64,000 nt of DNA, taken from the NCBI GenBank assembly GCA_964544145.1, contig CAZJAT010000003.1, positions 7,804 to 71,803 of the forward strand, given 5' to 3'. Position numbers and translations under genes: made by a program. Below the pieces are notes generated by a model that searched no databases, was not told where the DNA came from, and saw nothing but the letters and a program-made list of their open reading frames with translations. Source of the stretch: an uncultured Bacteroidales bacterium. Its GTDB lineage: Bacteria; Hydrothermota; 32-111. Within the stretch, counting starts at the first letter, position 1, and the number at the start of each line of letters is the position of its first letter. Below, one piece after another: positions 5,796-44,154 of the stretch.

Positions 5796-6693
5796 TGATT
5801 ATTTCCTTTACTAGAGGATGACGTATTATGTCCCTCGGTTTCAATTTTATTGATTCAATTCCAATTATCTCTTGAGTTAATTTATTCAACTCTATTAATC
5901 CGCTTTTCTGATTCCTATCCAGATCAGTCTGTGTAATATCACCCGTTATGATTACCTTTGAATTCATTCCCATTCGTGTGATAAACATCTTCATTTGCTT
6001 TGATGTAGTATTCTGTGCTTCATCCAGAATAAGATAACAATTAGACAATGTCCTTCCTCTCATATATGCCAGCGGGGCAATTTCAATAATCTCCTCATTA
6101 ATAAATCTCTCTACTCTGTCTCGTTCAAGCATTGAATGGAGAGCATCATACAATGGTCTTAAATATGGGTCAATCTTATCTTTCAAATCACCGGGCAGGA
6201 ATCCGAGTTTTTCTCCTGCTTCTACAGCAGGCCTGGTCAATATAATCTTCTTTATATTCCTGTTTAGCAACTCATTTAATGCCTTTGCTACAGCAAGAAA
6301 TGTCTTTCCTGTTCCGGCAGGTCCTATGGCAATAACGATTTCATTACTCATTAGGGCTTTCATATACTCTTTCTGCCCTTCAGTCCTCGGTTTTATAATA
6401 CGTTTAGGGAAATGGAAAACCAATTCATTGTTTACAGATCTGTTTTTTATCTTTGAAATAATACTTATAACATCACTTCTCTCAATAAATCCCCTATTGA
6501 GTTCAATGTCATTCAATTCATTTATAATGGAACATATTTCTTCATTTGCTAAAATATAATCAGTATCTGCATCCTTGATAATCTTACCTTCAACATTGGA
6601 TAATATTAATTCAGTAAAATCATTGTGTTTGCTAATAAATGAAATAATTAATTCTTTCTGTTTCATAATAAAAAAATAATGATTTTGGAGCAA
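5758..6693 (-). CDS. phoH: PhoH-like ATPase (YbeZ)
   Basis: 311 aa with a Walker A motif 'GPAGTGKTFLAV' and an overall PhoH-family sequence. Confidence 0.85.
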   Translation of the reverse strand: MLQNHYFFIMKQKELIISFISKHNDFTELILSNVEGKIIKDADTDYILANEEICSIINELNDIELNRGFIERSDVISIISKIKNRSVNNELVFHFPKRIIKPRTEGQKEYMKALMSNEIVIAIGPAGTGKTFLAVAKALNELLNRNIKKIILTRPAVEAGEKLGFLPGDLKDKIDPYLRPLYDALHSMLERDRVERFINEEIIEIAPLAYMRGRTLSNCYLILDEAQNTTSKQMKMFITRMGMNSKVIITGDITQTDLDRNQKSGLIELNKLTQEIIGIESIKLKPRDIIRHPLVKEIINAYDKSSSEQNS

Positions 6694-6742
6694 AAATGCT
6701 CCAAAATCATTATTATTTGCATTGTTTGACTATTTACGCTGC

Positions 6743-9512: not shown

Positions 9513-12083
9513 TTAATTAAAAATCATTGTCTTTTTGTTTATAATACTGTTTCCTGCTGTTATACGTATAAATAAAATACCGCTGTGATATATCCCTATA
9601 TCCTTACTGTTCAGTTCATATTCACCCTGCTCAAGAATACCGTTAACAGGTATACCTATAACCCTTCCAGTAATATCAAGTAATTCGATTTTTACATGCT
9701 TTTTATCAGATACTGTATATGAGAAAATGCCTCCATTTCCCATTACAGCGGGTACATGACATGATATACCTGAATTATAAGTATCCATATCAATAATTGA
9801 CGATAGATCTGTCTTGTAGCCCACTAACCAATATGATGTTGAATCAATATTCGCTGTAATAGCAATAGTATCGATAACAGGATTGACCCTCAGGATATTG
9901 TTTATGTCATCATTCCTTATATTATCTGAACCTGTTGTTTCATATACTGAAATACTGCCTCTGTATATACCGGAATTATGTTCCGTTTCCAAAAGAGTCA
10001 CTGCAATGCCCTGTGTATAAATATTAGAACTAATAATAGAAACAGCAACTTCTCTCATATCAGGAAAAACATTCTGTCCATATAGAGAGATATACAGAGT
10101 ACCGGGATTATATAATGTATCAATGACAAATGCATATGAAGTATCCGCATATGTTCTGACAGAATCAACCATAACGGGCTCTCTCTGTGCACCTGATATG
10201 AAATCAGATGAAAATGGTGTAAAATCTATATAACCATTTACTGTGCCTGAAATATCAATGGAATCGGTGTGAAACCAATAATTATTTTCACAATTCAATG
10301 TGTCATTTGTCAAATTGATAATCTCTGTATCTGCCTGGAATGTATTGTAATAGATATTACTTGCCGCAATAGATACAGATATACCGGGACCTGAATTAGC
10401 TGAAATATGTGCAAATCCTGATTGAGTATTCCCTGTACTTCCATTATCTGTGATAAAACTGGAATCAATGATTATCTGTGCATTTAAGGTATCATATATT
10501 GCTCCTCCAATGCCTGCTGAATTATTTGCGATGATACATTGACTGATACTAATATTAACATCATCACAACCTACCAATGCTCCGCCTCCATTAGCCGCAG
10601 AATTACCGTAAATAAGATTAGCTGTCAGTGCTGCTGATGCATCACTATAAACAAAAATACCGCCTCCGCCAATTCTGGATGTATTATTCATGATTTCATT
10701 ATTATTTAATATTGGAGCAGAATAATCATATATGAATAATCCCCCTCCATATCGCAGACATGAATTACCTTTTATTATATTATTCTCAATTATCGGATCA
10801 GAGTAGAATTGTGCATGAATGGCGCCGCCATATAATGCAGTTGAATTATTCATGAAAGAATTGCCTTTTATCAGAGGATCGCAGTGGTCATCCATAAATA
10901 TCCCCCCTCCGAATTGATTCACAGAATTACTGTGAATAATATTGTCTTCAATTGAGGGGGAACAGTTTATATACAATCCTATGCCCCCGCCTGCATCAGA
11001 AGCAATATTGTCAATTATACTATTTTTGCTGATAATAGGTGATGACTCATTGACTGCCATTATACCTCCGCCTGCAGAAGCCGAATTATTTGATATTGTA
11101 TTACTGTCAATAATTGTATTAGATGAATCTGCAAGACCTATACCTGCACCGAATTCTGCAATATTATTGGATATGGTATTCCCGTAAAACAGCGATAAAT
11201 TATCATGTATAATGCATATACCCCCTCCCGCGCTGTCTGCAAAATTCTGTGATATATCGGAAAAATTGACATTTATTTGCGAGTTCTCTATATGAAGCCC
11301 GCCGCCATTACCGCTTGATGCCGAATTGAAATTGATTGAGCAGCTGTCAATAATGATATTGCTGCTGTTCAATACCGCAATTCCTCCAACATCCGGCGCA
11401 TTATTATTGAGAATATTATTGTTAATTATACTTGCCTGCGAATTGGAAATTGCCATTCCGCCTGCTGCAAGAGATGAGCTGTCAAACACAACTGTATTGT
11501 ATCTTATAACAGGATTAGAGAGAGAATCAACACATATACCGGCTCCGATTATAGCTTTATTGCCTGATATATAATTACCCGTGATTTCCGGTTCTGCTCC
11601 ATTCCATATCATTATGCCTCCTCCATAATTGCTTGTTATATTGTCAGCAATAATGCAGGAATCAATAAATGGATTAGAATTACTGATAAATACACCGGCT
11701 CCAGGTTCTGATGTATTTGCCCCGGTGATTGTAAGATATTTCAATCCGCTGTAGCAGTCACCCAGATTCCAGAATGATACTACATGATTGGCAGAATTAG
11801 TCATACCTTGGTCCATTGCTGTCAATGTACATTGTAGTGCACTTATACCTATTAATATAACAGAATCTCTCATCACAAGACCCGAATCACCATTTATGAA
11901 TAAATGATATGTGCCTGGCATAAGTATTATTGTATCCGGATTAAACAGAGGAAATCCTGCAGCAGCATCAATATAATGCTGTAATGAATCACCCTCATCA
12001 CCCGTTGTGTCAATCACGGCTACTGCAGCTGAAATAAATGTGAACATTAATATTAGAATTAATAATAGGACAGTATTTTTCAT
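9513..12083 (-). CDS. secreted right-handed parallel beta-helix repeat protein with T9SS C-terminal sorting domain
   Basis: 856 aa with a signal peptide and many Gly/Asn/Ser-rich PbH1-like repeats (NxxGGGI/ANNxA). The C-terminus 'VKIELLDITGRVI...GEYELN...GIYHSGILFIRITAGN..KK' matches the Por/T9SS CTD pattern. Confidence 0.7.
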   Translation of the reverse strand: MKNTVLLLILILMFTFISAAVAVIDTTGDEGDSLQHYIDAAAGFPLFNPDTIILMPGTYHLFINGDSGLVMRDSVILIGISALQCTLTAMDQGMTNSANHVVSFWNLGDCYSGLKYLTITGANTSEPGAGVFISNSNPFIDSCIIADNITSNYGGGIMIWNGAEPEITGNYISGNKAIIGAGICVDSLSNPVIRYNTVVFDSSSLAAGGMAISNSQASIINNNILNNNAPDVGGIAVLNSSNIIIDSCSINFNSASSGNGGGLHIENSQINVNFSDISQNFADSAGGGICIIHDNLSLFYGNTISNNIAEFGAGIGLADSSNTIIDSNTISNNSASAGGGIMAVNESSPIISKNSIIDNIASDAGGGIGLYINCSPSIEDNIIHSNSVNQFGGGIFMDDHCDPLIKGNSFMNNSTALYGGAIHAQFYSDPIIENNIIKGNSCLRYGGGLFIYDYSAPILNNNEIMNNTSRIGGGGIFVYSDASAALTANLIYGNSAANGGGALVGCDDVNISISQCIIANNSAGIGGAIYDTLNAQIIIDSSFITDNGSTGNTQSGFAHISANSGPGISVSIAASNIYYNTFQADTEIINLTNDTLNCENNYWFHTDSIDISGTVNGYIDFTPFSSDFISGAQREPVMVDSVRTYADTSYAFVIDTLYNPGTLYISLYGQNVFPDMREVAVSIISSNIYTQGIAVTLLETEHNSGIYRGSISVYETTGSDNIRNDDINNILRVNPVIDTIAITANIDSTSYWLVGYKTDLSSIIDMDTYNSGISCHVPAVMGNGGIFSYTVSDKKHVKIELLDITGRVIGIPVNGILEQGEYELNSKDIGIYHSGILFIRITAGNSIINKKTMIFN

Positions 12084-12151
12084 GCAACCTCCCGAATTTG
12101 TTATTTCTGATTTTATCCAATTAATAATTCACTGTCAACACATCTTTGTAT

Positions 12152-12432
12152 AGGGCCGGGTGTCTATTTTTGTAACCTTTTATTACGTTTATTGCATTAT
12201 TGCGATTGAGTCATTTTAAGTTAAGTTATTACATTAGTTCGTAATGTAATAAATTTTAAAAATTTAATTATAATAATATTGGAAATATTTTTTTTTGCAA
12301 ATCTGCAAATAAATTAAATCTTCTTAAGCAATCTATTAGAATGATTTACGGTATTGAAATATATATTTGATTGCTTTTATATTTGAAAATTTGCTAAATG
12401 CGAAAAGGTTACAAAAATAGACACCCGGCCCT
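12152..12432. mobile_element. miniature non-coding element bounded by perfect 30-bp inverted repeats (MITE-like/REP-doublet derivative of the RAYT element at 40445..41377)
   Basis: 12152-12181 reads AGGGCCGGGTGTCTATTTTTGTAACCTTTT and its exact reverse complement lies at 12403-12432. The 221 bp between them are AT-rich with no ORF. The repeats differ at only 3 positions from the repeats flanking the transposase gene at 40.4-41.4 kb. Confidence 0.6.
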
Positions 12433-12480
12433 GTTAGGTATTGACATATATTTCTATTGTGGTATATTAATAATCAATAT

Positions 12481-12555
12481 CGCGGGGTGGAGCAGTGGTA
12501 GCTCATTGGGCTCATAACCCAAAGGCCGTAGGTTCAAATCCTACCCCCGCTACCA
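12481..12555 (+). tRNA. initiator tRNA-fMet (CAT)
   Basis: CGCGGGGTGGAGCAGTGGTAGCTCATTGGGCTCATAACCCAAAGGCCGTAGGTTCAAATCCTACCCCCGCTACCA. It has the three consecutive G-C pairs in the anticodon stem, an unpaired C1, and near-identity to the canonical bacterial tRNA-fMet. Confidence 0.85.
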
Positions 12556-40359: not shown

Positions 40360-40444
40360 TTTATAACTCCTTAATAATTAAAATATATGAAATTATTAAA
40401 AAAATTACATTAACATAATGCCCCATTCTTGTCAATATATATAT

Positions 40445-41377
40445 AGGGCCGTATGTCTATTTTTGTAACCTTTTTATAATAGAATTAACTGTTTTTCTTG
40501 AAAGTTTCAAAGTAAAAGCAATTTCTGATTGTTTGAATCCTAAATTATATAAAGAAAATATTAGTATATTTCGTTTATCAATAATTCCCCTATTCCATTT
40601 TTTGTTATAAAGTATACTATCATTGATATTTAGCTGCTTACAGAGTGTATTTATAGATATTTGAATATTCTTAGATTTCGTCCTTCTTCTATTAGGATTT
40701 CTTTGTTTATATCTACTATAATTTCTTTTGTTTATTGTCAAATAATCATCTTCAGTCCCCACATAATATTCTTCTTTATTATAATAACTTTCAATTTCTT
40801 TATTTATCTTATTTTCATCTATAAATCTCGTTATTTTTATTTTTGTTGATTTTTTCCGTTTCATTTTATATATATGTGCGCTTGAGTATGCATATTCATA
40901 TGGATATTTTACAATATGCGTTCTTATGGGATTGTCATGTATATAAGCTATAACCGAATTGTAGTAAAACTCTCCTAGGATAATAAATGATTTATATCTT
41001 CCCTGAAACACATGTCCACAAAGTGAATATTTCTCATTAAAATACATTGCATATATCGTATTTATTCTGTGCATGAATCCTGATATATCGAGCGTTTTCC
41101 TTCTAATTAGAAGGTGTACATGATTTCTCATTAAACAATATGCGATTACCTCAACATCATATTGAGTTAAAGCATAATTAGCAATTTCGCAATATTTATC
41201 CATATCATATTTGGAAAAGAATATTGGATTTTTTCTCTGTCCTCTTGAAATTATATGATAAACTGAACCTTCTATTTCCAGTCTCGTATCTCTCGCCATA
41301 TAAACCCCCTTTTGTTATATTTTACTTATTTTTTGACAAAATGCAATAAAAGGTTACAAAAATAGACATACGGCCCT
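40445..41377. mobile_element. RAYT/IS200-family Y1 transposase element bounded by perfect 30-bp terminal inverted repeats
   Basis: 40445-40474 reads AGGGCCGTATGTCTATTTTTGTAACCTTTT and its exact reverse complement lies at 41348-41377. The enclosed single gene encodes an HUH Y1 transposase-like protein. Flanking sequence is TATA-rich on both sides, which may be a target duplication. Confidence 0.7.
40457..41299 (-). CDS. REP-associated tyrosine transposase-like (Y1 HUH, IS200/IS605 Transposase_17 family) with C-terminal HTH extension
   Basis: 280 aa. The N-terminus matches RAYT signatures in order: 'YHIISRGQRKNPIF', 'AYCLMRNHVHLLI' (HUH), 'GHVFQGRYKS' and 'YIHDNPIR' (catalytic Tyr region). The extra ~110-aa basic C-terminus ends in the HTH 'FKQSEIAFTLKLSRKTVNSIIKRL'. 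The stop codon lies inside the left inverted repeat. Confidence 0.75.
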   Translation of the reverse strand: MARDTRLEIEGSVYHIISRGQRKNPIFFSKYDMDKYCEIANYALTQYDVEVIAYCLMRNHVHLLIRRKTLDISGFMHRINTIYAMYFNEKYSLCGHVFQGRYKSFIILGEFYYNSVIAYIHDNPIRTHIVKYPYEYAYSSAHIYKMKRKKSTKIKITRFIDENKINKEIESYYNKEEYYVGTEDDYLTINKRNYSRYKQRNPNRRRTKSKNIQISINTLCKQLNINDSILYNKKWNRGIIDKRNILIFSLYNLGFKQSEIAFTLKLSRKTVNSIIKRLQK

Positions 41378-41518
41378 ATATATTGTAACAAAATATGATA
41401 TAATGCGTATTAATAATCAACGACGGAGGCATTAATCAGAAACGATAAGGAAATTGTACAGGACATTCTTGATGGTAATAAGGGTTCATTTTCATTACTT
41501 ATTGACCGCTATGAGCAT

Positions 41519-43707: not shown

Positions 43708-44154
43708 ATGCCTAAGAAGACTGTTAAGAAAACAGCAGCGAAAAAGCCTGTTAAGAAAACAGCAGCCAAGAAACCGGTCAAGAAGACAGTAAAGAAAGCA
43801 ACTGCCAAAAAAGTCACAAAGAAACCCGCAGTGAAAAAAACAACAAAAAAGAAAGTTGCTAAGAAACCCGCAGTGAAAAAGACAGCCAAAAAGACAACAG
43901 CGAAGAAAGTAGTTAAGAAGACTGCAGTGAAAAAAGCAACAAAAAAGAAAGTTGTGAAAAAAGCAGTGAAAAAAGTTGCTAAGAAAAAAGCTGTGAAAAA
44001 ACCAGCAGTGAAAAAAACTGCAAAGAAGAAAGTTGTGAAAAAAGCAGTGAAAAAAGTTGCTAAGAAAAAAGCTGTGAAAAAACCAGTGAAAAAAGTAGCT
44101 AAGAAAAAAGTCGTGAAAAAAGCTGCAGTGAAAAAAACTGCTAAAAAGAAGTAG
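43708..44154 (+). CDS. histone H1-like Lys/Ala-rich DNA-binding protein
   Basis: 148 aa, about 45% Lys, built from K-K-x-(V/A/T)-(K/A)-K-K repeats (PKKTVKKTAAKKPVKK...). A strong Shine-Dalgarno site TAAGGAGG precedes it and a terminator follows. Confidence 0.7.
   Translation: MPKKTVKKTAAKKPVKKTAAKKPVKKTVKKATAKKVTKKPAVKKTTKKKVAKKPAVKKTAKKTTAKKVVKKTAVKKATKKKVVKKAVKKVAKKKAVKKPAVKKTAKKKVVKKAVKKVAKKKAVKKPVKKVAKKKVVKKAAVKKTAKKK
43948..44151. repeat. internal tandem duplication (~81-bp unit) within the histone-H1-like gene
   Basis: Unit 43948-44028 is repeated from 44029. The first 57 nt are identical, then the copy diverges with a short insertion. Shorter repeats (GTTAAGAAAACAGCAGC x2, AAGAAACCCGCAGTGAAAAA x2) occur earlier in the gene. 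Confidence 0.6.

What the first reader, a model, noticed from the sequence alone, without database searches (positions are those of the whole stretch)
12152..12432. Gene-less miniature copy (MITE/REP-doublet) of the same inverted-repeat pair, inserted beside initiator tRNA-fMet
An exact 30-bp inverted repeat (AGGGCCGGGTGTCTATTTTTGTAACCTTTT / reverse complement) brackets 221 bp of AT-rich non-coding DNA. It differs at 3 positions (GGG vs TAT) from the repeats flanking the RAYT-like gene 28 kb away. This suggests non-autonomous mobilisation in trans by the Y1 enzyme, with the tRNA-fMet 5' flank as the target. The repeats are not self-palindromic, unlike classical REPs.
Basis: seen in the sequence. 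Interest (0 to 1): 0.6.

Follow-up and report, generated by a model that had tools for sequence, protein, structure and literature searches.

The report
Gene-less inverted-repeat doublet of a TIRYT element
The 281-bp stretch next to the initiator tRNA gene is a gene-less pair of the same 30-bp inverted repeats that bracket a RAYT-like tyrosine (HUH) transposase gene 28 kb away. It is a new example, in a WOR-3-like bacterium, of the little-studied "TIRtron/TIRYT" class, not a new kind of element.

Summary
An exact 30-bp inverted repeat (12152-12181 / 12403-12432) encloses 221 bp of 20%-GC DNA, and its right tip lies 8 nt upstream of the -35 of an initiator-type tRNA-Met. The arms match 28/30 (two differences, not three) the repeats around a 280-aa Y1/HUH gene at 40457-41299.

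That gene is RAYT-like. Its HUH and YIHxNP motifs are intact, its best structural match is E. coli TnpA_REP (4ER8), and it has a C-terminal HTH. This architecture was published as TIRYT/"TIRtron" (Di Nocera 2013), which is TnpA_REP subclass 2.1 (Quentin 2018). Dimers of the TIRs elsewhere in a genome are part of that description.

New here:
- The gene and its TIRs are syntenic in relatives of only 53-56% protein identity, so they are vertically inherited.
- The two arms of each element change together.
- More distant homologues each carry their own TIR, built as a GC-rich tip plus tandem 8-10-bp subrepeats.
- One relative holds two near-identical gene-less doublets at separate loci.
- All four related lineages examined have a doublet upstream of tRNA-fMet, with three different TIR sequences.

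Trans-mobilisation is inferred, not shown. Genome-wide copy number could not be obtained, and no empty site was found. Verdict: a new member of a known kind, of moderate interest.

The parts
12152..12181 (+). Left (tRNA-distal) arm of the gene-less doublet. It has a GC-rich tip AGGGCCG, variable dinucleotide GG (12159-12160), then two weak 10-bp subrepeats GTCTATTTTT and GTAACCTTTT.
   Evidence: With its inner flank it matches the 5'-side end of the gene-bearing element over 42 nt at 90% (pair I1).
12182..12402 (.). 221-bp interior of the doublet, 19.9% GC. It has no ORF of note, no similarity to the TIRYT gene or protein, and no Rfam family.
   Evidence: RNA fold z-scores are -1.3 (+ strand) and -2.5 (- strand).
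12403..12432 (-). Right (tRNA-proximal) arm, the exact reverse complement of the left arm. The mirrored CC lies at 12424-12425.
   Evidence: As ssDNA the two arms pair into a 30-bp stem, z = -10.
12441..12468 (+). tRNA-fMet promoter-like site (TTGACA-16-TATATT, with TG before the -10). It lies 8 nt from the right tip of the doublet.
   Evidence: The same promoter is conserved in L010, L012 and L011.
12481..12555 (+). Initiator-type tRNA-Met (CAT).
   Evidence: Initiator features were read from the sequence.
12110..12138 (-). Promoter-like site (TTGACA-17-TAAAAT) of the divergent beta-helix protein gene. Its -35 is 13 nt from the left tip.
40445..40474 (+). 3'-side TIR of the gene-bearing element (TIRtron). 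It overlaps the last codons KRLQK and the stop codon of the TIRYT gene. Its outer tip is 9 nt from a TTGACA read as the -35 of the downstream nuoE-like gene.
   Evidence: The position is conserved in L001 and L002.
40457..41299 (-). TIRYT gene, 280 aa. It has an N-terminal Y1/HUH nuclease domain (H60-V-H62, GHVFQGRY, Y119-IHDNP) and a C-terminal helix-turn-helix.
41348..41377 (-). 5'-side TIR of the TIRtron, 48 nt upstream of the TIRYT start codon. Its outer tip abuts the ECF-sigma gene's upstream region (TGTAAC-N16-CGT).
   Evidence: The same arrangement is present in L001.

Best explanation
The 281-bp element is a non-autonomous TIR doublet belonging to the repeat family of the resident TIRYT. 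TIRYT is a RAYT-like Y1/HUH single-strand DNA nuclease fused to a C-terminal HTH domain.

The gene-bearing unit, called a TIRtron, spans 40445-41377. It is a single, vertically inherited locus bracketed by two 30-bp terminal inverted repeats.

Proposed mechanism:
1. The HTH domain recognises the tandem 8-10-bp subrepeats inside each TIR.
2. On single-stranded DNA (the lagging-strand template), the two arms of a doublet pair into a long hairpin.
3. The HUH/Tyr centre nicks at or near the GC-rich tip and transfers the unit to a new intergenic site without a target duplication. This is the mechanism proposed for REPIN/RAYT systems.
4. Pairing of the arms, or copying of one arm from the other, keeps them identical. 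That explains why the variable dinucleotide (GG, TA or CG) is always mirrored in both arms.

Shown here: the shared TIRs; intact catalytic motifs and the HTH; vertical inheritance and strong conservation of the TIRs; dispersal of a whole doublet in a relative; absence of target duplications; recurrence of doublets upstream of tRNA-fMet. Inferred: binding, cleavage, trans-mobilisation and the hairpin intermediate.
For: - The mini arms and the TIRtron arms match 28/30. The mini's left end matches the TIRtron's 5' end over 42 nt at 90%.
- Enzyme: Y1_Tnp E = 1e-15. REP_Tyr_transpos scores 58 bits against 21 bits for IS200. HUH, GHVFQGRY and Y-I-H-x-N-P are invariant in 15 homologues. The AF2 model (pLDDT 82) best matches 4ER8_A TnpA_REP, TM 0.72 normalised to the target. 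The C-terminal HTH hits HTH_23 in 9/15 members, HTH_28 in 3/15 and Bac_DnaA_C in 1/15.
- All six homologue lineages examined have their own 30-40-bp TIR pair at the same positions relative to the gene.
- The orthologous TIRtrons L001 and L002 keep the synteny ECF sigma | TIRYT | nuoE | nuoF, and 25-29 of 30 TIR bases, at 53-56% protein identity.
- TIRYT diverges in step with a housekeeping glycosyltransferase: 56/56, 53/53 and 68/69%.
- Within-element arm mismatches are 0, 0, 0 and 1. Differences between elements are 1-5.
- L011 has two doublets identical in arms and spacer, at different loci, in opposite orientation, with sharp ends.
- No target duplications are seen.
- The literature describes the same class, including TIR dimers elsewhere in genomes (PMC3733652, PMC6006769).
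Against: - Only one doublet was seen in 64 kb, with no solo or degenerate arms at up to 6 mismatches.
- Genome-wide copy number is unknown.
- No empty site was found in the 99.9%-identical strain.
- The 221-bp interior is unrelated to the TIRtron and much longer than the 41-51-nt spacers in L011. The unit of mobility in this genome is therefore unproven.
- Deep conservation of TIRs at fixed loci fits a host-level function at least as well as ongoing selfish mobility. Examples are type A at the TIRtron, and the type-B arm conserved 25/26 between L010 and L012.
- In relative X (L001 and L010, from the same sample) the tRNA-fMet doublet has arms unlike that organism's TIRtron TIRs (about 14/30).
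- No TIRYT has ever been shown biochemically to bind or cut its TIRs. I found no such paper; only two papers in the searched library use the term.
Confidence: 0.6

Rival explanations
1. Domesticated binding-site module. The TIRs are operator-like sites for the TIRYT HTH domain, or for another host factor, placed just upstream of promoters. These include its own promoter and those of the nuoE-like operon, the ECF sigma gene, tRNA-fMet and the beta-helix protein gene. On this view the doublet beside tRNA-fMet is a conserved regulatory or insulating element rather than an actively mobile one.
For: - All four TIR tips in the window lie 5-13 nt from promoter-like -35 elements (my reading of the sequence).
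- The tip-to-(-35) arrangement at the nuoE-like gene is conserved in L001 and L002.
- It is also conserved at tRNA-fMet in L010 and L012.
- In L003, L005 and L007 the TIR subrepeats are TTGAAA/TTGAAT hexamers that appear to serve as the -35 of the TIRYT gene itself.
- TIRs are conserved far beyond neutral expectation at fixed loci.
- TIRYT evolves at the same rate as a housekeeping gene.
- The HTH gives weak LuxR and sigma-70 region 4-like hits.
Against: - A plain operator does not need two perfect inverted copies 221 bp apart, nor an intact HUH/Tyr nuclease centre. That centre is invariant in 15 homologues.
- L011 shows duplication of an entire doublet, including its spacer, which is dispersal rather than site evolution.
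- Short intergenic regions in a compact genome force any tolerated insert to abut promoters.
Confidence: 0.22
2. In-situ relic. The doublet is what remains of a second, once gene-bearing TIRtron copy (variant GG/GG) whose gene was deleted or replaced at this site. It never moved as a miniature element.
For: - The interior is long (221 bp) and unique.
- Both arms carry the same GG variant, distinct from the resident TIRtron's TA.
- The left end keeps about 12 extra nucleotides of the TIRtron's 5' end (pair I1).
Against: - There is no trace of the gene at DNA or protein level.
- TIRYT appears as one syntenic copy in relatives.
- Short gene-less doublets clearly exist and multiply in L011.
- The equivalent site in relatives also holds gene-less doublets.
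Confidence: 0.1
3. A classical DDE-type MITE, or a chance or assembly artefact unrelated to the Y1 gene.
For: The layout is a 30-bp TIR pair with an AT-rich interior, which is MITE-like.
Against: - The expected number of chance matches is 0.00.
- The same sequence is present in an independent assembly.
- There are no target-site duplications.
- The TIR-to-Y1-gene association holds in every lineage examined.
- No DDE transposase carries these TIRs in the window.
Confidence: 0.03

Closest known systems
TIRtron / TIRYT (TIR-associated tyrosine transposase; Di Nocera, De Gregorio & Rocco 2013, PMC3733652), which is TnpA_REP subclass 2.1 of Quentin et al. 2018 (PMC6006769)
   Same: - A RAYT-like Y1/HUH protein longer than classical RAYTs, with a C-terminal HTH of the HTH_23 / HTH_28 / Bac_DnaA_C type.
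- The gene is bracketed by long non-palindromic TIRs, one of which overlaps the gene's 3' end.
- The tips are G-rich.
- Copies of the TIR occur elsewhere as dimers.
- The species lacks GTAG REPs nearby.
   Different: - The tip is AGGGCCG rather than the published GGGGWSAS. L011's GGGGACGG fits that motif at 7 of 8 positions.
- The lineage is WOR-3-like, inferred from source names of homologues. I did not check whether the published surveys included that lineage.
- Several features are documented here that I did not see in the passages I read of those two papers: deep synteny, concerted change of the two arms, tandem -35-like subrepeats, and recurrence at the tRNA-fMet promoter.
REPIN-RAYT systems (Bertels & Rainey 2011, PMC3116915; Nunvar 2010, PMC2817692; E. 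coli TnpA_REP structure 4ER8, PMC3479197)
   Same: - A single-copy, vertically inherited HUH enzyme flanked by its cognate repeats in inverted orientation.
- Gene-less doublets of inverted repeats that can form a hairpin.
- Compensatory or mirrored changes in the two halves.
- The best structural match is TnpA_REP.
   Different: - The repeat unit is not itself a palindrome and carries no conserved GTAG tag.
- The spacer here is 221 nt.
- The protein has an extra HTH domain.
- The protein scores below NCBIfam's REP_Tyr_transpos cut-off (58 vs 80 bits).
- High copy number is not shown.
IS200/IS605 TnpA elements
   Same: The Y1 HUH fold and catalytic motifs. Insertion without target duplication is expected.
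   Different: - IS200/IS605 elements have subterminal hairpins, not TIRs.
- They are multi-copy and horizontally spread.
- Their TnpA is about 130-150 aa without an HTH.
- The NCBIfam IS200 score here is only 20.6 bits against a cut-off of 55.
Bacterial MITEs (for example RUP, NEMIS/Correia, ERIC)
   Same: A short gene-less element with 15-30-bp TIRs, lying in intergenic DNA next to promoters.
   Different: - Those MITEs are tied to DDE transposases and have target-site duplications.
- Here the cognate gene is an HUH enzyme and no duplication is present.

Membership tests
TIRYT / TIRtron (TnpA_REP subclass 2.1) | The protein has a Y1/HUH domain with RAYT-type signatures: HUH, a catalytic Tyr in Y-x-x-x-N-P, and GH-x-FQ-x-RY. 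| tested here: met
   Pfam Y1_Tnp E = 1.1e-15. H60, H62, G95-H96, F98-Q99, R101-Y102, Y119, H121 and P124 are invariant in 15 homologues. Best PDB fold match is 4ER8_A TnpA_REP, E = 2e-7, TM 0.72 normalised to the target.
TIRYT / TIRtron (TnpA_REP subclass 2.1) | The gene is bracketed by long terminal inverted repeats that are not REP hairpins. | tested here: met
   A 30 (36)-bp exact IR lies at 40445-40474 / 41348-41377. The arm has no self-structure. The same holds in L001, L002, L003, L005 and L007.
TIRYT / TIRtron (TnpA_REP subclass 2.1) | A C-terminal extension carries an HTH of the HTH_23 / HTH_28 / Bac_DnaA_C type. | tested here: met
   Across the family: HTH_23 in 9/15, HTH_38 in 8/15, HTH_28 in 3/15 and Bac_DnaA_C in 1/15. 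The window protein itself gives only sub-threshold HTH hits at residues 242-280. Its AF2 model shows a helical C-terminal domain with pLDDT about 90.
TIRYT / TIRtron (TnpA_REP subclass 2.1) | GGGGWSAS motif at the TIR tip. The paper reports it for a subset of TIRtrons only, so it is not strictly defining. | tested here: not met
   The window tip is AGGGCCGT or AGGGCCGG. Tips in relatives are GGGGCCGG (L005), GAGGGACG (L003), GGGGACGG (L011, 7/8) and GGGGCCAG (L010). They are G-rich but do not fit the consensus. [quoted passage not shown]
TIRYT / TIRtron (TnpA_REP subclass 2.1) | The TIRs can form a dispersed repeat family (single, dimeric or grouped copies). | tested here: inconclusive
   One dimer is present in the 64-kb window. 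Two dimers are present in 21 kb of relative L011. A genome-wide count was not possible, because the collection scans returned 0 hits.
Classical REP/REPIN-RAYT | The repeat unit is a short imperfect palindrome (a stem-loop), usually tagged GTAG. | tested here: not met
   The single arm folds with a minimum free energy of 0 kcal/mol. The window arm reads ATAG, not GTAG. L001 and L002 happen to read GTAG at that place.
Classical REP/REPIN-RAYT | Two repeats in inverted orientation form a hairpin-capable doublet, and changes are mirrored between the halves. | tested here: met
   A 30-bp stem forms, ssDNA z-score -10. The variable positions 8-9 read GG/GG, TA/TA, TA/TA and CG/CG in four elements.
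Classical REP/REPIN-RAYT | The enzyme gene is single-copy and vertically inherited. | tested here: met
   Synteny is conserved in L001, L002 and L008. Divergence runs parallel to a glycosyltransferase. Single-copy status in the whole genome was not testable.
Classical REP/REPIN-RAYT | The protein reaches NCBIfam's REP_Tyr_transpos (NF047646) cut-off. | tested here: not met
   58.3 bits against a cut-off of 80.
Classical REP/REPIN-RAYT | Tens to hundreds of repeat copies per genome. | not testable with these tools
   Only 64 kb of this genome is held. Its assembly is not in the searchable collections.
IS200/IS605 | An IS200-type TnpA with subterminal hairpin ends and no TIRs. | tested here: not met
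   NCBIfam transpos_IS200 scores 20.6 bits against a cut-off of 55. The ends are 30-bp TIRs.
DDE-type MITE | Target-site duplication flanking the TIRs. | tested here: not met
   The mini's flanks are TTTGTAT|...|GTTAGGT. L011's flanks are GACAGGC|...|GACCGAG and CTCTAAT|...|GCATATC. No direct repeat is present.

The most novel reading that the evidence does not exclude
The doublets may not be merely selfish passengers. TIR doublets may be specifically targeted to, or retained at, the region just upstream of the initiator-tRNA promoter. All four related lineages examined carry one there, with three unrelated TIR sequences.

The TIRs themselves are arrays of -35-like hexamers: TTGACA x3, TTGAAA x2, TTGAAT x2. 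The TIRYT's sigma-region-4/LuxR-like HTH could bind these.

The system would then be a domesticated HUH-HTH protein plus portable promoter-proximal binding modules. These modules would modulate or insulate the stable-RNA promoter and neighbouring promoters. The two arms would be kept identical by hairpin-templated correction.
Probability: 0.15. Interest if true: 0.7.

Novelty: new member of a known kind. Interest (0 to 1): 0.38.

Why it matters
TIRYT/TIRtron elements are named in only two papers of the searched library, and I found no experimental study of them. Subclass 2.1 of the TnpA_REP superfamily is reported as the largest subclass, yet its function is unknown.

This locus offers a compact, tractable case: one enzyme gene, one cognate doublet, and clear TIR architecture. 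Comparative evidence shows the TIRs are under strong constraint over deep divergence, that their two arms evolve in concert, and that doublets recur next to the initiator-tRNA promoter.

That makes three questions directly testable:
- Does the HTH domain read the subrepeats?
- Does the HUH centre cut at the tip?
- Does the host use these repeats?

As a genome-annotation matter the finding is ordinary. It is a repeat doublet of a known class, not a new system.

Tried and rejected
- **Genome-wide count of the 30-mer.** I ran exact and degenerate patterns: GGCCNNNTGTCTATTTTTGTAACCTT, then GGGCCGNNTGTCTANNNNTGTAACC. They gave 0 hits in genome contigs, metagenome contigs and viral contigs. The lineage is absent from those collections, so no count is possible.
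- **Exact look-up of the TIRYT protein.** It is not on record. A one-residue variant (P0058) led only to a 99.9%-identical assembly of the same population.
- **Empty-site test.** The near-identical strain has the doublet. The relatives are too distant to provide an empty site and instead carry other doublets.
- **sRNA in the interior.** Rfam gives only the tRNA, plus a sub-threshold S774 match (28.6 vs 48 bits, E = 0.23) that I regard as chance. Fold z-scores of the interior are unremarkable.
- **Internal-deletion derivative with gene remnants.** blastn and tblastn of the mini against the TIRtron and its protein found nothing beyond the arms and about 12 nt of the 5' inner flank.
- **Homology of the interior to relatives' doublets.** None was found.
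- **PDB sequence search.** No phmmer hit. A fold search was needed.
- **Other TIR families or solo arms in the window.** None at up to 6 mismatches, and no other exact IR of 20 nt or more.
- **L007's tRNA-Met as a further test of the tRNA association.** By sequence it is an elongator/Ile2-type tRNA, not the initiator, so it is uninformative.
Full report
**1. The observation**

The window contains AGGGCCGGGTGTCTATTTTTGTAACCTTTT at 12152-12181 and its exact reverse complement at 12403-12432, with 221 nt between them. Allowing 3 mismatches, the 30-mer has four matches in the window: these two and 40445-40474 / 41348-41377. Shuffled sequence gave 0.00. An exhaustive scan shows these two pairs are the only exact inverted repeats of 20 nt or more with spacing up to 1.6 kb in 64 kb.

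The mini arms differ from the distant arms at two positions (GG vs TA at arm positions 8-9), not three. The distant pair is really 36 bp, because ATATAT flanks extend it.

The interior is 19.9% GC against 33.6% for the window. A single arm has no self-structure, so "not self-palindromic" is correct.

tRNA-Met(CAT) lies at 12481-12555. Its C1 x U72 mismatch and GGG/CCC anticodon stem are initiator hallmarks; this is my reading of the sequence against textbook knowledge.

The doublet fills the space between two divergent promoter-like sites. One is TTGACA-17-TAAAAT for the beta-helix protein gene, with its -35 13 nt from the left tip. The other is TTGACA-16-TATATT for the tRNA, with its -35 8 nt from the right tip.

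**2. The gene 28 kb away**

ORF 40457-41299 (-) encodes 280 aa.
- It has a Y1_Tnp domain (E = 1e-15).
- NCBIfam ranks REP_Tyr_transpos first (58 bits, below the 80-bit cut-off). IS200 is far behind at 21 bits.
- In an alignment of 15 homologues, the HUH histidines, GHVFQGRY and the Y-I-H-x-N-P tyrosine motif are invariant.
- An AlphaFold model (pLDDT 82) matches E. coli TnpA_REP bound to a REP hairpin (4ER8_A) best, with TM 0.72 normalised to the target. It matches IS608, ISDra2 and IS200 TnpA less well.
- The C-terminal ~45 residues form a helix-turn-helix. Across the family Pfam finds HTH_23 (9/15), HTH_38 (8/15), HTH_28 (3/15) and Bac_DnaA_C (1/15).

The 3'-side repeat overlaps the last codons (KRLQK and the stop codon). 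The 5'-side repeat lies 48 nt upstream of the ATG.

**3. Relatives of the gene-bearing element**

The best-matching non-identical homologues (56% and 53% identity) sit in the same gene order: ECF sigma | Y1 gene | nuoE-like | nuoF-like. They are bracketed at the same positions by the same 30-mer:
- L001: AGGGCCGTATGTCTACTTTTGTAACCTTTT, both arms identical.
- L002: AGGGCCGCGTGTCTACTAATGTAACCTTTT, one arm mismatch.

A housekeeping glycosyltransferase from the same or closely related organisms diverges by the same amounts: 56%, 53%, and 69% between the two relatives, against 68% for the Y1 protein. The element is therefore old and vertically inherited, not a recent insertion. Its non-coding 5' TIR has kept 25-29 of 30 bases, where neutral DNA would be randomised.

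Differences between elements (1-5 per 30) are mirrored in both arms of each element. Within-element mismatches are 0, 0, 0 and 1. That indicates concerted evolution of the arms.

More distant homologues (39-42% identity; L003, L005, L007, the last from a MAG labelled candidate division WOR-3) are in other genomic contexts. Each still has its own 30-40-bp TIR pair at the same relative positions. All share one architecture, a GC-rich tip followed by two or three tandem 8-10-bp subrepeats:
- GGGGCCGGTG-CTTGAAAAA-CTTGAAAAA
- GAGGGACGTTG-GTTGAAAAA-GGTGAAA
- AAAGACCGG-GTCTTGAAT-GTCTTGAAT

The window's GTCTATTTTT-GTAACCTTTT is a weaker version of the same plan. In L003, L005 and L007 a subrepeat appears to double as the -35 of the gene's own promoter (my reading). 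This recalls the autoregulatory layout I know from many insertion sequences.

**4. Relatives of the tRNA-fMet locus**

I used the adjacent glycosyltransferase as an anchor.

- **L010** (same sample as L001) has, 12 nt upstream of the tRNA-fMet -35, an inverted-repeat doublet with a 156-nt spacer. Its arms are GGGGCCAGGTTGACATTTTGACAGTTTTG. The architecture is the same, but the sequence differs from that organism's gene-flanking TIRs.
- **L012** shows the same arm (25/26 identical) at the same place. The contig ends inside it.
- **L011** (GCA_030592285.1, 47% relative) has a doublet of GGGGACGGAGTTTGGAATTTTGGATTTTTT 260 bp upstream of tRNA-fMet. It has a second copy 2.4 kb away.

The two L011 copies are nearly identical across arms and spacer. 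They lie in opposite orientation, and similarity stops exactly at the GGGG tips with no target duplication. That is direct evidence that such gene-less doublets multiply as units.

So all four lineages examined have a doublet upstream of tRNA-fMet, with three different TIR sequence types. Because I chose these loci only for being orthologous to the window's site, this recurrence is unlikely to be chance unless doublets are extremely abundant. It points to a preferred or retained site.

The 99.9%-identical assembly of the same population also carries the doublet, so no empty site was seen.

**5. What it is**

The architecture matches a published class: "TIRtrons" encoding TIRYTs (TIR-associated tyrosine transposases).
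- Di Nocera et al. (PMC3733652) describe RAYT-like genes flanked by long TIRs unrelated to REPs. Some overlap the gene's 3' end, some share a GGGGWSAS tip, and "moderately abundant families of TIRs" are organised as single, dimeric or grouped copies.
- Quentin et al. (PMC6006769) equate TIRYTs with TnpA_REP subclass 2.1. That subclass is characterised by a C-terminal Bac_DnaA_C, HTH_23 or HTH_28 domain and the absence of REPs.

The window's protein family shows exactly these domains. The 281-bp element is therefore a TIR dimer of the resident TIRtron's repeat family.

It is not a classical REP or REPIN: the unit is not palindromic, there is no conserved GTAG, and the protein is below the NCBIfam cut-off. 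It is not IS200/IS605, and it is not a DDE-type MITE because there is no target duplication.

**6. How it most likely works (confidence about 0.6)**

By analogy with RAYT/REPIN and IS200/IS605 chemistry (established for 4ER8 and IS608, but inferred here):
1. The HTH domain docks on the tandem subrepeats.
2. The two arms pair on single-stranded DNA. A 30-bp stem forms, ssDNA z = -10.
3. The HUH/Tyr centre nicks near the GC-rich tip and moves or copies the unit without target duplication.
4. Arm pairing, or templating of one arm by the other, would explain the mirrored dinucleotide.

The recognition helix differs between the type-A group (L-S-R-K-T-V/I) and the others (C-x-K/Y-S-L-I-S-K-I-L) in step with the different subrepeats. 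This is suggestive, but the sample is small.

The mini's left end retains about 12 nt of the TIRtron's 5' inner flank (pair I1). That hints at descent from the gene-bearing unit. The rest of the interior is unrelated.

**7. Rivals**

- **(a) Domesticated binding-site or regulatory module (about 0.22).** All four tips abut promoter elements, TIRs are conserved at fixed loci, and the subrepeats resemble -35 hexamers. Against this: the nuclease centre is strictly conserved, and L011 shows duplication of a whole unit. This rival is not exclusive of the main reading.
- **(b) In-situ relic of a second TIRtron (about 0.1).**
- **(c) DDE MITE, chance or artefact (about 0.03).** Effectively excluded.

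**8. Limits**

- Copy number in this genome, an empty site, and the cognate gene for the type-B and type-C doublets could not be obtained.
- Assigning L001 with L010, and L002 with L012, to the same or sister organisms rests on shared sample (L001/L010 only) and matching divergence. It does not rest on linkage.
- The WOR-3 affiliation rests only on source names of homologues.

**9. Verdict**

This is a new member of a known kind. Some comparative features I did not see in the passages I read of the two papers: deep vertical conservation, concerted arms, -35-like subrepeats, and recurrence at the initiator-tRNA promoter. These give it moderate interest.

Noticed in passing
window 12534-12555 (also L010 2132-2153, L011 11047-11068, L012 1913-1934): The glycosyltransferase ORF on the minus strand ends 22 nt inside the tRNA-fMet gene on the opposite strand. 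The overlap, and the C-terminal peptide LGIGSGGRI, are the same in the window, L010 and L012. The 22-nt overlap is also present in L011. The protein's C-terminus is therefore partly dictated by the tRNA's 3' end.
   Followed up: partly
window 43708-44154 (+): A 148-aa ORF made almost entirely of K/A/V/T repeats (KKTAAKKPVKK...), encoded by degenerate 27-nt tandem repeats. It looks like a histone-H1/Hc1-like basic DNA-binding protein.
   Followed up: no
window 41378-41415; L001 9880-9921: Directly outside the 5'-side TIR, on the strand of the divergent ECF sigma gene, lies TGTAAC-N16-CGT. This resembles an ECF-type promoter (AAC...CGT), is conserved in L001, and starts 5-6 nt from the TIR tip.
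   Followed up: partly
window 40415-40444; L001 10853-10890; L002 931-968: The nuoE-like gene is preceded by a conserved TTGACA-17-TAATGT promoter-like site. Its -35 is 8-9 nt from the 3'-side TIR tip in all three genomes.
   Followed up: partly
L005 10837-11325: In this 42%-identity relative, the TIRtron's 3'-side TIR lies 66 nt upstream of a tRNA cluster (Thr-Tyr-Gly-Thr), with a TTGACA about 20 nt from the tip. This is a second case of a TIR next to a stable-RNA promoter.
   Followed up: partly
L004 (940 nt), L006 (1740 nt), L009 (933 nt), L002 position 1, L012 end: Short Logan contigs end within a few nucleotides of, or exactly at, the TIR outer ends. L009 has the same 933-nt length as the TIRtron. 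This is probably a de Bruijn-graph break caused by the 30-36-bp inverted repeat, assuming an assembly k-mer of about that size. It is not by itself evidence of high copy number.
   Followed up: partly
window 12226-12252: A perfect 11-bp AT-only hairpin (TTATTACATTA-GTTCG-TAATGTAATAA) lies inside the doublet's interior. Its function is unknown, and it is not terminator-like by the scan.
   Followed up: no
window 6671-6718: A 22-nt inverted repeat with a 4-nt loop (95% complementary) is the only other strong local hairpin in the window. It is probably a transcription terminator.
   Followed up: no
window 9513-12083 (-): An 856-aa right-handed beta-helix (NosD/Beta_helix) protein with a signal peptide. 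Relatives' neighbouring genes carry Por_Secre_tail (T9SS) domains. The gene upstream of tRNA-fMet differs in every relative, so this intergenic region is a synteny breakpoint.
   Followed up: partly
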